From the human T2T-CHM13v2.0 reference genome, Homo sapiens, in contig CP068257.2 in NCBI GenBank assembly GCA_009914755.4, positions 26,624,001 to 26,688,000 on the forward strand: a stretch of DNA of 64,000 nucleotides, in the 5' to 3' direction. This document shows, piece after piece, positions 39,001-48,000 of this stretch (its first letter is position 1; each line of letters begins with the position of its first letter). A program made the position numbers.

Positions 39001-42000
39001 TTCACATTCAGGCTTTGACTTTTACAAGTAATGTATCTTGGGCAAATCACTAATTTTGCTGCAGATAACTTTTTGTGTTTGAGAATTGCTAAGATATTTA
39101 CATTATGCAAAGATATAATTGCTTTGTAATCTATGAAAATATATTAAAAATGTCAATAGGTAATATGGGAAGAATAGCTGGCTGTCCATCAAAATCTCCT
39201 TCCCATTTTTACTGTATATGGTTGTGGTTCCTTAAAGGAGCTAGGTTCCATTTCCAAGACCACCTTGCAGCTAGCTGTGGCCTTGTGACTGGTTAATATC
39301 AACAGAATAAGTAATTGTGTATGCCACTTTATGATCAAGGTAATAACATCATTCATCCTCCATACTCACTGTCTCTTTCCACAAAATAAATAAAAATGGT
39401 TATAGCCCCATGGGATGACAGAAGATGGGAGAAACTTAGGTTTCTGCATTATGGATATGGAAAAAAATCTGCTCATGGATCAGGAATAACCACCTTGGAC
39501 TGTTACTATGATGGTGAAAATGGTCTCTTGTGTTGACCCATTATATACTTTGCATGTATATTTTATCAAACCTTAGTGTATGCTTCCTAGTAGAGAAACT
39601 GATACCTTAAAGTGAAGTGTTTCTATTTAGTAAACCACTAAAATACAGGACATGGGAATAACAGCTGGGCAGTGGGCAGTGTGGTGGTGAATACTGAGTG
39701 TCAACTTGATTGGATTGAAGATGCAAAGTATTGATCCTGGGTGTGTCTGTGAAGGTGTTGCCAAAGGAGATTAACATTTGAGTCAGTGTGCTGGGAAAGG
39801 CAGACCCACCCTTAATCTGGATGAGCACAATCTAATCAGCTGCCAGTGCAGCTAGAACAAAAAGCAGGCAGAAGAATGTGAAAAGACTAGACTGGCTTAA
39901 CCTCCCAGCCTACATCTTTCTTCTGTACTGGATGTTTCCTGCCCTTGAACATCAGACTGCAAGAACTTCAGCTTTGGGACTCAGACTGGCTTCCTTGCTC
40001 CTCAGCTTGCAGATAGCCTATTGTGGGAGCTTGTGATCATGTGAGTTAATATTCCTTAATAAACTCACTTTTATTTATACACTTATACTATTAGTTCTGT
40101 CCCTCTAGAGAACCCTGACTAATACAGATTTTGGTACCAGGAGTGGTTTTAGAGGAATAGAATATTAAGGATGGAGTTCTTTCATTGGTTTGGGGGTTTC
40201 TGGAGTTGGCTGCTTAATGTGATTAGACCCAAAATTGCTAAGGACTCTACTTCTTTTTTTTTTTTTTTTTTTTTTTTGAGACAGAGTCTCACTCTGTCGC
40301 CCAGGCTGGAGTGCAGTGGTGCGATCTCGGCTCACTGCAAGCTCCGCCTCCCAGGTTCATGCCGTTCTCCTGCGTCAGCCTCCCAAGTAGCTGGGACCAC
40401 AGGTGCCCACCACCACGCCCAGCTAATTTTTTATATTTTTAGTACAGACGGGGTTTCACCATGTTAGCCAGGATGGTCTCAATCTCCTGACCTCGTGATC
40501 CGCCCGCCTCGGCCTCACAAAGGACTCTACTTCTAATAGTATGGAGAACACTGATAGTCCTTGGCATGAACTGTGTAGATGCATTTGACACTCCTGATTC
40601 ACTGCACATGAGGGGCGAGGAGTTTAGTGACTCATACATAATACCTTTGACCATATGTGGAGAACCAAAGAACATTATGAAGTTGGTTGGTTGCTTCTAA
40701 GTTCACTGGACAAAGTGATGTAAGAAAATTATGAACTCAGGAATTCTAACTCCCAGTTACAGATGCAGATACTGAGCCTCAAATCTCCTAAGATTGCCCT
40801 GAGTGAGACTTACCTCCTGTAGAGAAAAAGCTAAAGTTGTGGAAAATCAGACACAGGCTCTTATAATGCGAGCAACTGACCTGCAACAAAAGATGTATGC
40901 ACAGCCTTGCCAGGTGTCTACTGTTAAAGTGAGGGCATTGATTGGAAAAAAATGAGACCCTGCAACTTGGAATGGGGATGTGTGGGAGGACCCTGATGAA
41001 GCTGGGGACACTGAGATTGTAAACTCTGATGAACCTTTTTTGCCAGAAGAAACAGCTTCCCCATCCCCAGTAGTGGCAACATTCCCTCCCCAACCCCAAC
41101 TGCCATCAGCCTTTCTATCTTTGTCTGAGGAGATAAACCCTGTGCTGCCTGAGGCAACAGCAATGGCCTCCGCTGAGGCAGTTTCCAGGCAAGGTAATGT
41201 TGATTCTCCTCAGTACTCACCCTCAACACCCCTGATTGCTTCTAGACCTATAAGTAGACTAAAGTCCCAGCAGGCCCCTAGAGATGAGGTTCAGAGTGTG
41301 ACCCATGAAGAGGTGCACTACACTCAAAAAGAACTACTTGAGTTTTCTGGTTTATATAAGCAGAAATCTGTAGAACAGGTATGGGAATGGATATTAAGGG
41401 TGTGGGATAATAGTGGAAGGAACATAGAGTTGGATCAGGCCGAATTCATTGATTTGGGCCCCCTAAGTGAGGATTCTGCATTTAATATTGCTGCTCGGGG
41501 AGATAAAAAAAGTTCTAATAGTTTGTTTGGTTAACTGAAATATGGATTAAAAGATGGCCCACTGTGAGCAAGCTGGAAATGCCTGATTTCCTCCCTTGAT
41601 TTAATGTAGAAGAAGGGATCCAAAGGCTTAGGGACATTGGGAAGATGGGGTGGATTAGTCACTTCAGACCTACTCATCTCATCTGGGAGAGAGTCCGGAA
41701 GATATACCCTTGACCAATATTTTGTGAAATAGATTTGTGAGGGAAGCACCTGCATCTCTGAGGAGCTCTGTAGGGACTGCTCTTCTCTGTATGCCAGATC
41801 TAACAGTGAGAACTGCAGTCACTCAACTATGAAATGTAAATGCAATGCGAATAATTGGATCCTGAGGTGGCAGGGGCCAAGTGGCAACACTCAGCCATCA
41901 AAAGCAAGGTGGGCATAGCTACCGTAATGGACATCAGAGGCAAAGCAGCAATCAGAATAGTGTGACTTGTGTAGAACGCTGGCATTGTCTAATTAATCAC

Positions 42001-45000: not shown

Positions 45001-48000
45001 CTCCTGATATAGGTTTGCCTATCCTGCACTCAATGCTTCTGCCAAGACTACCATCCGTGAACTCACAGAATGCCTTATCCACCATCATGGTATTCCACAC
45101 AGCATCGCCACCAAGCAAGGCAATAATCTTATGGCTAAAGAAGTGTAGGCAGTGGGCTCATGCTCATGGAATTCACTGGTCTTACCGTGTTCCCCATCAT
45201 TCTGACGCAGCTGGATTGATAGAATGGTGAAATGGCCTTTCAAAGTTGCAATTACAATGCCAACTAGGTGCAATACTTTGCAGGGCTGGGGCAAAGTTCT
45301 TCACAAGGCTGTGTGTTCTCTGAATCAGTGTCCAATATATAGTATTATGTTTGAGCATGTTTACACTCATACTAAGAAAATATCTTCGTTTTATTTCCTT
45401 TTTCATGTACCATAAGATTTATTGACTTCATATCAGAATTTAAGTGTTGTTAACTTTATGTAATAGCATTTGGATTGGGGATTGGTTCATTTCTAGTTTT
45501 AAGAAAGATAGCTGTATTATGTTAGGTATAATTATGATAGTTTATTTGAAGATTATGTATGATCTCAGGAGATTTGTATGGGTTCAAGTTGACAAGGGGT
45601 GGATGTGTGATGGTTAATACTGAGTGTCAACTTGACTTGATTGAAAGATGCAAAATGCTGGTCCTGGGTGTGTCTGTGAGGGTGTTGCCAAAGGAGATTA
45701 ACAGTTGAGTCAGTGGGCTGGGAAAGGCAGACCCACCCTTAACTGGGTGGGCACCATCTAATCAGCAGGCAGAAACAGGTGAAAAAGAGAGACTGGCCTA
45801 GGCTGCCAGCCTACGTCTTTCTCCCGGGCTGGATACTTTCTGCCCTCGAACATTGGACTCCAAGTTCTTCAGCTTTGGGACTCGGACTGGCTTCCTTCCT
45901 CCTCAGCTTGCAGACAGCCTATTATGGAACCTTGTGATTGTGTGTTAATACTCCTTAATAAACTCCTCTTTGTATGTACATCTATCCTGTTAGCTCTGTT
46001 CCTCTAGAGAACCCTGACTAGTACAGGCAGTGAGGAATAGCTGATGTAGGCTGGGAAATTGGGGACCTATGCTGTGCAGTATCAAAATATTTGGCTAAAC
46101 TATTGCCGGAGATGAGTTAGAAGGCCAAAGACAGATAATTGTGGTTCTAGGGAAATTGTTGGAAGGAGCCAAAATATTAGTGTGTGTTGGCTACACAGAC
46201 TGCATTTAGCAAAATATTTCAGGAAAAAGATTAGCTTATATATGACTGACCAACTGGTAGCAGGGCTGGAAAAAGAGAACTCTTGAAGCCCACATAGCAT
46301 TTGCTCTCCAGAGATTGTTAAGACTTTCCAGAATAAAAAGAATTTAGCCATGTGATAAAGGTCAGGTTAAAGGCATTGTTTTCTCACACAAGTGTATTGT
46401 TTTAAGTGGTTTTTATTTAGTGGCCACTAAATTTGAAGAAATAGCCATGAGGGAAAGACAGCAAAATTACAAGGCAGATGTAAGAACTATGTCTAGGAAA
46501 AAATTCAGGGTATGACTCCAGTCATAATAAACTAACTAGAAGCAAATATTCCTGAAAATTTTGAAAGGGCTGTGCCAAGAAAGAATGCATGATTCTAGGC
46601 TGTAAAATCCAGAGACCAATGGGCAAGCCTTAACACTTGGACCCCCAAAATTGAATGAATAAGTAGTCAGCTATGAAAGCTGATCAGTTCTCAAAGGGTC
46701 AGAGTTTCTGACATCCACTGCAAATAATGATGTCATGAAGGATTGAACAAGGAGAAACAATCTAGAGGTAATACTCAGGGTCATGAAGAACAAAGGGCAA
46801 GATAATTTTTCTATAAAAAGAGTGCCTAATCCATAATATATTATAGGGATATTTTAATGCCTGTTCAGCAGAATATGACAAAGGAGTAGTGACTACTGTG
46901 AGATTTTTAACATATATTCTACCCTTCTACCATCATATTTGGTGTGGAGGAAGGCAGGGGCAAATAGCTTGTCATTTTGATTAGCAGGTCACTGGACAGG
47001 TAGAAGTCATATCTGGTCTATGGAAGCAAATGTACAACTCCCACAGATCATGGATTTTGAGCTGATGCAGTTTCTTAATCAAAATCTGGAATTTTCCTCT
47101 TAGTGATGGGATAGGTGTGGTTTCCAAGTGGGAAGAAAGGTGCAATTTTCCCACCCAAAGAACTAAGAGTGAATTTGGCAGTCAGAGAAATGGACGGTAG
47201 AAGTATCAATGTCTCCACTAACCTTGCTAGTCACTTGTAGCTGGGAAGCAGCTACCCAGTTAAGAAGTGCATTTATTTACTCTGCTTGCGTTCAGATGTG
47301 ATCATGTGATTAGTTGTCAACAAAGTTAGGTGAACAGAAAAGATGTGAGCCACTTCCAGGCAAAGGATGTAATTAATTGGTTTGCTTTTGTCCATTCCAC
47401 TTCCCCTTGTACTCATGGATGCCAATATGATGAAAGGTGGAGCCACAATCCAGAAGACTGGGACTCTGAGTCACCCATGGAAAAGAGTCACCTTGAATTG
47501 TGTGGGCTAGAAATAAACTTTCATTGCATTTGAAGCATGTAGATCATTTTGTTTCTATTTGTTACCACAGTTTAGTATAATCTTCCACATTATAGTTATA
47601 TTAGTAAGAGATAATATTTATTCAGGGAAAAGCACAATGTTAACAAAGTCATTTTAAGTGTTCTTGTAAGAAGAAAAATATGGATATGGAATACACTGCA
47701 ATATATGATGCATATCTAAGGCATTTTTGCATTTGAAATCTGAGGTGAAAACTCCTTTCATGTAACTTGGCTAGTTTTTGTTATGTAATATTAACAGACT
47801 ATGCACATATATATGTGTATATATATATATACGCATATAAATATATATGTGTATATATATATATATGCATATAAATATATATATGTGTGTGTATAATTTG
47901 TTTAAAAATGAATCTTCTACTAATATAAATGAAGAAAAACATAAAAGTACATAATCTTATTTATAATGTAATATGTGAATTTCAGCTTTGCATTTTTGAT

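What the first reader, a model, noticed from the sequence alone, without database searches (positions are those of the whole stretch)
39675..46039. Structurally complete ERVL (HERV-L-like) provirus with intact 5-bp TSD, Leu-type PBS and gag-pro-pol remnants
This is the closest thing to a 'system' in the window: a roughly 6.36-kb provirus with both LTRs, PBS, PPT and recognisable gag, protease (DTGS), RT, RNase H and integrase in the correct order. The same pentamer GGCAG abuts both LTRs, which proves a single integration. Class assignment is ERVL rather than gamma-like ERV1, on four lines of evidence: MLT2A-type LTRs, a 5-bp (not 4- or 6-bp) TSD, a PBS closest to tRNA-Leu, and no env. Pol appears C-terminally truncated, with IN ending about 170 bp before the PPT. 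Under my recollection of the HERV-L description, the dUTPase domain 3' of IN is therefore missing. Most ERVL copies in primate genomes are solo LTRs or heavily deleted, so a full-length copy with both LTRs and TSDs is a useful locus. The longest ORFs (184 aa gag piece, 139-142 aa pol pieces) are too fragmented to encode functional proteins.
Basis: partly seen in the sequence, partly recalled or inferred. Interest (0 to 1): 0.55.

Follow-up and report, generated by a model that had tools for sequence, protein, structure and literature searches.

The report
Decayed HERV-L provirus, human genome
This is an ordinary, long-dead copy of the human endogenous retrovirus HERV-L, complete at both ends but with broken genes, of a kind already catalogued in the human genome by the hundred.

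Summary
Window 39675-46030 is one retroviral integration. Two LTRs (39680-40126, 447 bp; 45606-46025, 420 bp) are 85.4% identical. They start TGT and end ACA and are flanked by the same pentamer GGCAG. A tRNA-Leu(TAA)-type primer binding site follows the 5' LTR, then gag, protease (DTGS), RT, RNase H and integrase, with no env.

The ERV-L assignment is supported:
- pol is 74% identical to an intact ERV-L-type pol that carries a dUTPase after integrase;
- gag matches Fv1 and intact ERV-L gag;
- the zinc-finger spacing is ERV-L-specific;
- the whole element is 88-91% identical in DNA to dozens of HERVL contigs.

- the 3' duplication ends at 46030, not 46039;
- the missing dUTPase is a private 665-bp deletion, and the 239 bp before the polypurine tract is native HERVL 3' untranslated sequence;
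- an antisense Alu (40255-40519) sits in the start of gag;
- RT carries a private 244-bp insertion made of two downstream pol pieces.

About 16 stops and several frameshifts kill pol. LTR divergence suggests roughly 35-65 My. The family is known and the interest is low.

Separately, about 10 kb away, a duplication-flanked element joins a HERVL LTR to a MaLR body and MaLR 3' LTR.

The parts
39675..39679 (+). 5' target-site duplication GGCAG
   Evidence: Read directly. Identical to 46026-46030.
39680..40126 (+). 5' LTR (447 bp, MLT2A1-like), TGTG...TACA. AATAAA lies at 40058-40063. DUX4-motif-like sites lie at 39707-39717 and 39828-39838. The TATA-like box is mutated relative to the family consensus.
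   Evidence: About 90% identical to the 442-bp LTRs of HERVL contigs. Motif positions were read from the sequence; the DUX4 consensus is from my own knowledge; the existence of two such sites in MLT2A is from PMC8559712.
40132..40149 (+). Primer binding site, tRNA-Leu(TAA) type
   Evidence: 16/18 match to TGGTACCAGGAGTGGGGT (PMC6049499). Nineteen human-type HERVL contigs carry TGGTACCAGGAGTGGTTC.
40171..42177 (+). gag remnant: 7 stops, 3 frameshifts, and an Alu in its N-terminal part
   Evidence: tblastn of an intact ERV-L gag covers aa 61-581 at E 7e-109. Fv1 homologues were found. The ATG at 40171 sits 45 nt after the LTR, as in the intact reference.
40255..40519 (-). Secondary Alu insertion, 5'-truncated, with its poly(A) read as poly(T). 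The 15-bp duplication AAGGACTCTACTTCT lies at 40240-40254 and 40520-40534.
   Evidence: HERVL contig L050 is continuous across the site, and the 15 bp occur once there. Other Alus in the window match it.
42315..42617 (+). Protease; DTGS at 42339-42350
   Evidence: Pfam RVP, weak, E 0.042. tblastn to P0001 aa 1-88 at 69%.
42599..43084 (+). RT, N-terminal part (fingers and palm, up to reference aa 245)
   Evidence: Pfam RVT_1. tblastn 79-82% to P0001.
43085..43328 (+). Private 244-bp insertion in RT. Piece A (43085-43216) copies 43698-43829. Piece B (43220-43311) copies 44559-44650. They join at a TTTGG microhomology and are followed by a short local duplication.
   Evidence: None of 44 HERVL contigs covering the site has any of the three junctions.
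43329..43690 (+). RT, C-terminal part. YIDD has decayed to FVED.
43698..44660 (+). RT connection and RNase H
   Evidence: Pfam RT_RNaseH_2 1.2e-12 and RNase_H 1.3e-8. tblastn.
44666..45344 (+). Integrase. The zinc finger has the spacing HX4HX28(C>F)X2C. In the catalytic core the first D is lost, the second D is changed to K, and the E is kept. The C-terminal domain is absent.
   Evidence: Pfam rve. tblastn to P0001 aa 690-920. Spacing.
45344..45347 (+). Breakpoint of a private 665-bp deletion that removes the integrase C-terminus, the dUTPase and the pol stop. TGTTT microhomology.
   Evidence: Forty contigs hold about 665 bp here and none shares the deletion. The deleted stretch in L050 encodes a dUTPase, Pfam 7e-15.
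45347..45583 (+). Native HERVL 3' untranslated region
   Evidence: About 85.5% identical to the stretch just upstream of the PPT in 40 HERVL contigs.
45592..45605 (+). Polypurine-tract region (ACAAGGGGTGGATG)
   Evidence: Abuts the 3' LTR. 45584-45636 is 85% identical even to the MuERV-L-like reference.
45606..46025 (+). 3' LTR (420 bp). A 24-bp deletion removes the TATA-like region. AATAAA at 45957-45962.
46026..46030 (+). 3' target-site duplication GGCAG

Best explanation
Window 39675-46030 is a single, fixed, non-functional HERV-L (class III, ERV-L) provirus with MLT2A1-type LTRs in human DNA.

How it arose (inferred from the anatomy and from established retroviral replication). An env-less ERV-L genome was reverse-transcribed from a tRNA-Leu primer. 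That produced two identical LTRs. Its integrase inserted the DNA and made a 5-bp staggered cut, giving GGCAG on both sides. This happened in the germ line of an early anthropoid, roughly 35-65 My ago.

What happened since (shown):
- about 7% substitutions per LTR lineage;
- 7 stops in gag and 16 in pol, plus several frameshifts;
- loss of the RT YIDD motif and of two of the three integrase catalytic residues;
- an Alu insertion in the 5' end of gag;
- a 24-bp deletion in the 3' LTR;
- a private 665-bp microhomology-flanked deletion that removed the integrase C-terminus and the dUTPase;
- a private 244-bp insertion in RT, built from two downstream pol segments by template switching, either during the reverse transcription that made this copy or later during DNA replication or repair.

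It encodes no functional protein. Any present-day activity could only be regulatory, from the LTRs, and that was not tested.
For: One integration. Identical GGCAG at boundaries fixed by TGT...ACA and by LTR homology.

LTR pair. 85.4% identity. In the three-way comparison with a family consensus there are 23 and 32 private changes against 4 shared.

PBS. 16/18 to the tRNA-Leu(TAA) 3' end.

Domain order. Pfam and tblastn against an intact 1124-aa pol with RT, RNase H, rve and dUTPase.

gag. E 7e-109 to an intact ERV-L gag; Fv1 homologues.

pol phylogeny. 200/200 with P0001 and with dUTPase-bearing pols.

ERV-L-specific spacings. HX4HX28CX2C and N-X55-G, compared with the table in PMC8278194.

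Whole-element similarity. 88-91% DNA identity to human-metagenome HERVL contigs.

Deletion and insertion. Both mapped and shown to be private.

Literature. dUTPase C-terminal of integrase in MuERV-L and HERVL (PMC1224870, PMC4724089). 5-bp duplication for ERV-L (PMC8278194). MLT2A expansion 45-65 My ago (PMC8559712). LTR divergence of class III HERVs 13-42% (PMC4724089).
Against: - No Repbase or Dfam consensus could be run, so the MLT2A1 label rests on length and on similarity to LTRs attached to HERVL contigs.
- The dUTPase that marks intact ERV-L is absent in this copy, though this is explained by a mapped deletion.
- The RT domain scores equally against MLV and foamy-virus RT structures (127 vs 126 bits), so solved structures alone do not separate the classes.
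- The reference contigs are collapsed assemblies of many genomic copies, not curated consensuses.
- The age depends on an assumed substitution rate, and no orthologous locus was examined.
Confidence: 0.97

Rival explanations
1. It is a class I (gamma-like, ERV1) or class II provirus that was misread as ERVL.
For: RT scores about equally against MLV and foamy-virus RT structures. Some database hits carry automatic names such as 'ERV group K member 8 Pol-like'.
Against: - The closest intact pol (74% identity) has a dUTPase after integrase.
- The tree puts the window pol with such pols 200/200, apart from sequences carrying MLVIN_C, Gag_p30, TLV_coat or Gag_p24_C markers.
- The integrase core matches foamy-virus integrase best.
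- The zinc-finger spacing is that of ERV-L, not MLV.
- The duplication is 5 bp, the PBS is Leu-type, there is no env, and gag is Fv1-like.
Confidence: 0.01
2. The two LTRs come from two different HERVL integrations joined by ectopic recombination or deletion, so this is not one provirus.
For: LTR divergence of 14.6% is substantial. The 3' LTR has a 24-bp gap. The interior is rearranged.
Against: - The flanking pentamers are identical at homology-defined boundaries (p about 1.4e-3).
- The two LTRs share 4 derived changes, and each is about equally far from the family consensus.
- The interior is collinear with HERVL contigs from PBS to PPT, apart from the mapped insertion, deletion and Alu.
Confidence: 0.02
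3. It is a non-autonomous ERVL-MaLR element, or a chimera of the kind seen about 10 kb away, rather than a true HERV-L.
For: MaLR and ERV-L share LTR termini and a Leu-like PBS. A hybrid HERVL-LTR/MaLR element and a complete MaLR lie in the same window.
Against: - The element carries protease, RT, RNase H and integrase, which MaLRs lack (PMC11359688).
- Both LTRs are of the same HERVL type.
- The interior has no similarity to the MaLR interior elsewhere in the window.
Confidence: 0.005

Closest known systems
HERV-L (HERVL-int with MLT2A1 LTRs), human class III endogenous retrovirus
   Same: - LTR length (447 bp against the published 444 bp) and TGT...ACA termini.
- 5-bp duplication and tRNA-Leu PBS.
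- gag, protease, RT, RNase H and integrase in that order, with no env.
- 88-91% DNA identity to HERVL contigs over the whole interior, including the 3' UTR and PPT.
   Different: This copy lacks the dUTPase and the integrase C-terminus through a private 665-bp deletion. It also carries a private 244-bp pol-in-pol insertion and an Alu. 'Nearly all' HERVL keep the dUTPase (PMC4724089).
MuERV-L / MERVL-type intact element (contigs L001-L006, pol P0001); mouse origin is inferred, not shown
   Same: - pol is 74% identical in protein, and gag 40-53%.
- Same PBS core and a conserved PPT.
- Same domain order.
- DNA identity 70-84% over gag-pol.
   Different: The reference has open gag (571-581 aa) and pol (1124 aa) with a dUTPase, and unrelated LTR interiors. 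The window copy is decayed and older.
HERVL copies with MLT2A2-type LTRs (about 545-555 bp)
   Same: Same interior family. The LTR ends are homologous, about 80%.
   Different: The window provirus lacks the roughly 90-bp extra block of the longer LTR type, and is about 10 points more similar to the 442-bp type.
Foamy viruses (Spumaretrovirinae)
   Same: The integrase core is closest to prototype foamy virus integrase among solved structures. The literature groups class III ERVs as spuma-like.
   Different: There are no env or accessory genes. The zinc-finger and RT motif spacings differ (PMC8278194). The family carries a dUTPase, and the PBS and duplication length are different.

Membership tests
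HERV-L / ERV-L (class III) | Interior collinear with, and closely similar to, HERVL internal sequence from PBS to PPT | tested here: met
   88-91% identity to HERVL contigs over 40520-43079 and 43332-45344. About 85% over 45347-45583. The leader is 96% identical.
HERV-L / ERV-L (class III) | pol groups with ERV-L pols rather than class I or II | tested here: met
   74% identity to P0001. The NJ bootstrap is 200/200 with P0001 and with dUTPase-bearing pols, against marker-bearing gamma and beta sequences. The class labels of the outgroups rest on Pfam markers, not on curated references.
HERV-L / ERV-L (class III) | dUTPase domain C-terminal of integrase (present in nearly all HERVL, though not all) | tested here: not met
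   No dUTPase in any frame. The absence is secondary: a 665-bp deletion whose two flanks are both HERVL sequence, and the deleted stretch in 40 other contigs encodes the dUTPase. This reflects decay of this copy and is not evidence for a different lineage.
HERV-L / ERV-L (class III) | Primer binding site complementary to tRNA-Leu | tested here: met
   16/18 (15 contiguous) to the complement of the tRNA-Leu(TAA) 3' end given in PMC6049499.
HERV-L / ERV-L (class III) | 5-bp target-site duplication and TGT...ACA LTR termini | tested here: met
   GGCAG on both sides; TGTG...TACA. The criterion is from PMC8278194.
HERV-L / ERV-L (class III) | No env gene | tested here: met
   Only 261 bp lie between the end of integrase homology and the 3' LTR, and all of it is HERVL 3' UTR and PPT.
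HERV-L / ERV-L (class III) | gag related to MuERV-L gag and Fv1 | tested here: met
   tblastn 7e-109 to an intact ERV-L gag. Fv1 proteins at 38-51% identity, E down to 1.7e-122.
HERV-L / ERV-L (class III) | ERV-L motif spacings: integrase HX4HX28CX2C and RT DYRKLN-X55-G | tested here: met
   The window has HEQSGH-X28-(F)PIC and DYCKLN-X55-(S), gapless against P0001. The reference values for ERV-L, foamy virus and MLV are from PMC8278194.
MLT2A1 LTR subfamily | Match to the Repbase or Dfam MLT2A1 consensus better than to MLT2A2 or other MLT2 subfamilies | not testable with these tools
   No consensus library is available. Three proxies: length 447 bp against the published 444 (MLT2A1) and 549 (MLT2A2); about 90% identity to the 442-bp LTRs of HERVL contigs against about 80% to the 545-bp type; two DUX4-motif-like sites upstream of an AG-rich centre, as described for MLT2A.
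ERV1 (gamma-like, class I) | 4-bp duplication, gamma-type integrase C-terminus (MLVIN_C, GPY/F), Gag_p30, gamma-type env | tested here: not met
   The duplication is 5 bp. There are no Gag_p30, MLVIN_C or TLV_coat hits. The tree separates the window pol from sequences with these markers.
ERVL-MaLR | LTR element of about 2.3 kb lacking pol | tested here: not met
   pol is present. The interior is unrelated to the MaLR interiors elsewhere in this window.

The most novel reading that the evidence does not exclude
The private 244-bp insertion in RT may be a fossil of three successive template switches by the ERV-L reverse transcriptase during the replication cycle that produced this copy, rather than a later genomic rearrangement. 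It consists of two non-adjacent downstream pol segments, joined in frame at a TTTGG microhomology, with the full downstream pol still present.

A duplication-flanked HERVL-LTR/MaLR hybrid lies about 10 kb away, outside the finding. Its crossover maps to the PBS. Taken together, the window would then preserve direct traces of recombination inside ERV-L particles, including co-packaging of MaLR RNA.
Probability: 0.3. Interest if true: 0.35.

Novelty: already known. Interest (0 to 1): 0.1.

Why it matters
It matters little beyond annotation. HERV-L is a well-described family, and copies with both LTRs, though a minority, number in the low hundreds. A two-LTR copy with intact duplications can serve as a dating point, through LTR divergence and the nested Alu. 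It is also a candidate DUX4-responsive LTR locus, but here the 5' LTR has a mutated TATA-like box and the 3' LTR has lost that region. The private rearrangements are small case studies of microhomology-mediated change. The neighbouring hybrid element is the only item in the area that could teach something new, namely how pol-less MaLR elements were mobilised.

Tried and rejected
Searches that gave nothing:
- Rfam on 39000-47000 returned no hits.
- ARAGORN on the window found no tRNA to compare with the PBS, so a published tRNA-Leu(TAA) 3'-end probe was used instead.
- The original HERV-L and MuERV-L papers are not held.
- Pfam has no gag family for ERV-L; only a weak DUF5535 hit appeared, in both the window gag and the intact gag.

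Ideas tested and dropped:
- Solved structures as a class test. RT is equidistant from MLV and foamy virus, and only the integrase leans towards foamy virus. I replaced this with a tree and motif spacings.
- That the AT-rich 239 bp before the PPT is foreign filler or another repeat. Forty HERVL contigs carry it at the same place.
- That the RT insertion or the dUTPase deletion mark a HERVL subfamily. None of 44 and none of 40 contigs share them.
- Timing the RT insertion from divergence. It shows 8.9%, against 14.1% for the LTR pair, Fisher p = 0.07, which is not decisive.
- BLASTP of the 180-aa MaLR ORF against ERV-L gag found no significant similarity.

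
Full report
**Observation**

The region was read directly and scanned for repeats. Two direct repeats bracket about 5.5 kb. A gapped alignment gives a 5' LTR at 39680-40126 (447 bp) and a 3' LTR at 45606-46025 (420 bp). 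There are 419 aligned columns, 358 matches (85.4%), 41 transitions, 20 transversions and K2P 0.165. One 24-bp gap lies in the 3' LTR.

Both LTRs begin TGTG and end TACA. The five bases before the 5' LTR (39675-39679) and after the 3' LTR (46026-46030) are both GGCAG. At a fixed register and this base composition, a 5/5 match has probability 1.4e-3. The element with its duplications is 6356 bp.

**Coding content**

Three-frame translations against Pfam give hits in this order:
- RVP, weak, at 42315-42551; the DTGS motif is at 42339-42350;
- RVT_1 in two pieces;
- RT_RNaseH_2 (1.2e-12);
- RNase_H (1.3e-8);
- rve (8e-4).

There is no dUTPase and no env family.

A frameshift-corrected pol finds an intact 1124-aa protein, P0001, at 74% identity over 98% of the query. 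Its Pfam order is RT, RNase H, rve, dUTPase. Contigs encoding P0001 (L001-L006) are 6-kb gag-pol elements. They are probably mouse MuERV-L, but that is an inference.

tblastn of P0001 on the window maps pol aa 1-245 to 42354-43086, then aa 245-920 to 43329-45344. Nothing matches beyond aa ~927. The intact gag of L002 covers 40634-42177 (aa 61-581) at E 7e-109. The gag ATG at 40171 lies 45 nt after the LTR, as in the reference. A database search with the window gag returns Fv1 proteins of rodents and a hare at 38-51% identity. This matches the published kinship of ERV-L gag and Fv1 (title cited in PMC1224870).

**Class assignment**

Solved structures do not separate the classes for RT: MLV-type 127 bits, foamy-virus PR-RT 126 bits. 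The integrase core is closest to prototype foamy virus integrase (E 3e-11, against 6e-7 for the next group).

A neighbour-joining tree of 34 pols over 878 columns gave two results. The window pol pairs with P0001 in 200/200 bootstraps. In 200/200, one split holds the window pol and all dUTPase-bearing pols on one side, and every sequence with gamma markers (MLVIN_C, Gag_p30, TLV_coat) or beta markers (Gag_p24_C, Integrase_Zn) on the other.

Motif spacings given for ERV-L, foamy virus and MLV in PMC8278194 were checked. The window has H-X4-H-X28-(C>F)-X2-C and DYCKLN-X55. These are the ERV-L values. Foamy virus has HX3HX29 and X64. MLV has HX3HX32 and X71.

The PBS TGGTACCAGGAGTGGTTT (40132-40149) matches 16/18, with the first 15 contiguous, the probe TGGTACCAGGAGTGGGGT. 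That probe is complementary to the 18-nt 3' fragment of human tRNA-Leu(TAA) (PMC6049499). A 5-bp duplication and TGT...ACA ends are described as characteristic of ERV-L (PMC8278194).

**Family context from other copies**

A scan of metagenome contigs with the 112-aa integrase ORF returned 79 loci. Many are labelled human skin or gut metagenome. These are host-derived, consensus-like HERVL assemblies.

The window element aligns to them at 88-91% over the whole interior and 96% over the leader. Its LTRs are about 90% (5') and about 84% with gaps counted (3') identical to their 442-bp LTRs. A consensus built from 11 such LTRs shows 23 changes private to the 5' LTR, 32 private to the 3' LTR and 4 shared, over 390 columns. 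That is the pattern expected of two copies diverging since one integration.

Published consensus lengths are 444 bp (MLT2A1) and 549 bp (MLT2A2), with two DUX4-motif-like sites upstream of an AG-rich start region (PMC8559712). The window LTR fits the MLT2A1 length and has such sites at 39707-39717 and 39828-39838. However, the TATA-like AATATAAG of the consensus reads AACAAAAAG in the 5' LTR and is deleted in the 3' LTR. No Repbase or Dfam consensus was available, so the subfamily label is by proxy.

1. *The stretch before the PPT.* The 239 bp between the end of integrase homology and the PPT region is not a short tail. It is the native HERVL 3' untranslated region, found at about 85.5% identity in 40 contigs immediately upstream of their PPT. 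Between it and integrase those contigs hold about 665 bp that the window lacks (40 of 40; none shares the deletion). In L050 that stretch encodes the integrase C-terminus and a dUTPase (Pfam 7e-15). The breakpoint (45344/45347) shows a TGTTT microhomology. Integrase homology ends about 245 bp before the PPT, not about 170 bp.

2. *An Alu in gag.* An antisense, 5'-truncated Alu (40255-40519) with a 15-bp duplication (40240-40254 and 40520-40534) interrupts the first 30 codons of gag.

3. *An insertion in RT.* RT is interrupted at reference aa 245 by 244 bp (43085-43328).
   - Piece A (43085-43216) copies 43698-43829, which is pol aa 368-412.
   - Piece B (43220-43311) copies 44559-44650, which is aa ~653-685.
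   - The two join at TTTGG and are followed by a short duplication of the target.
   - None of 44 contigs covering the site has any of the three junctions.
   - Insert and parent segments differ at 20 of 224 sites and share 4 derived changes. The LTR pair differs at 55 of 390. Fisher p = 0.07. Whether the rearrangement arose during reverse transcription or later is therefore unresolved.

**Functional state**

Stitched gag has 7 stops and 3 frameshifts. Stitched pol has 16 stops and at least 6 frameshifts. The state of the catalytic motifs is:
- RT: YIDD is now FVED.
- Integrase: the first catalytic D is lost and the second is changed to K.
- Zinc finger: the first C is now F.
- Protease DTGS and the RNase H acidic residues survive as sequence only.

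The element cannot encode working proteins.

**Age**

K2P 0.165 gives about 33-37 My at 2.2-2.5e-9 per site per year, and 63-82 My at 1.0-1.3e-9. The literature places the MLT2A expansion at 45-65 My (PMC8559712), and HERV-L activity in simians until about 30-40 My ago (PMC11359688). Class III LTR divergences are reported as 13-42% (PMC4724089). This copy is at the younger end of that range.

**Novelty**

HERVL is a catalogued family. There are 86 canonical and 75 non-canonical proviruses by RetroTector, and about 200 by older counts (PMC4724089). This locus is an ordinary member with three private lesions.

**Outside the finding**

On the minus strand, 30394-27850 is an element with three parts:
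- a 5' LTR of HERVL type, 545 bp (30389-29845), 87% identical to the 555-bp LTRs of HERVL contigs;
- a MaLR-type interior (29844-28217), 77-82% identical to the interior of a complete MaLR at 55510-57805;
- a MaLR-type 3' LTR (28216-27855).

Boundaries set by homology leave AGTTC on both sides. The complete MaLR, checked the same way, has AGGTC on both sides.

A four-way alignment places the switch from HERVL-like to MaLR-like sequence within the first ~8 nt of the PBS. A provirus with two different LTRs and one duplication is what an intermolecular plus-strand strong-stop transfer at a shared PBS would give, starting from two co-packaged genomes. The rival explanation is a chance pentamer match plus ectopic recombination. 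This was followed only as far as described here.

Noticed in passing
window 27850-30394 (minus strand): An element flanked by AGTTC on both sides with two different LTR families. The 5' LTR is a 545-bp HERVL (MLT2A2-like) LTR at 30389-29845. The interior (29844-28217) and the 3' LTR (28216-27855) are MaLR-type. The HERVL-to-MaLR switch maps to the first ~8 nt of the Leu-like PBS. This could be a fossil of an intermolecular plus-strand strong-stop transfer between co-packaged HERVL and MaLR genomes. Alternatively it is a chance pentamer match (p about 1e-3) plus recombination.
   Followed up: partly
window 29256-29798 (minus strand): An intact 180-aa ORF (MWKQLWNWVTGRGWNSLEG...) starts 47 nt after the LTR of the hybrid element, at the position of a gag start. 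It has no Pfam hit and no BLASTP similarity to ERV-L gag. A diverged copy of the same sequence lies in the MaLR at 55880-56470.
   Followed up: partly
window 55510-57805 (plus strand): A complete MaLR-type LTR element of about 2.3 kb. The LTRs are at 55515-55875 and 57414-57800, about 78% identical. It has a Leu-like PBS (TTGGTACTGGTAGAGTGGGG), no pol, and a perfect 5-bp duplication AGGTC.
   Followed up: partly
window 8642-9005 (minus strand): Another MaLR-type LTR fragment, about 69% identical to the LTR at 55515-55875. It is probably a solo LTR.
   Followed up: no
window 43085-43328: The pol-in-pol insertion is in frame with the 142-aa ORF 42926-43354. This is why that ORF is one of the longest in the provirus: it reads through RT, piece A and piece B.
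   Followed up: yes
window 1119-6732, 18782-19023, 27504-27738, 52586-52841, 61408-61666: About ten further Alu copies, 70-86% identical to the Alu inside the provirus. Window G+C is 36.7%, against 45% for the provirus.
   Followed up: no
window 20034-20507 (minus strand): A 157-aa ORF containing ...WNQPKCRSMIDWVKKMWHIYTMEYYAAMKKDEFMSF.... From memory this resembles the C-terminal part of LINE-1 ORF2. It has no Pfam hit.
   Followed up: no
L001-L006; proteins P0001, P0129: Intact gag (570-581 aa) and pol (1124 aa) of a MuERV-L-like element recur in many metagenome assemblies. One gag cluster is named as a Trypanosoma congolense IL3000 protein, which looks like host (mouse) contamination of that assembly.
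   Followed up: no
L007-L085: Human-associated metagenome assemblies contain collapsed, consensus-like HERVL contigs with two LTR length classes, about 442 bp and about 555 bp. They were usable as a stand-in for the MLT2A1 and MLT2A2 consensuses.
   Followed up: partly
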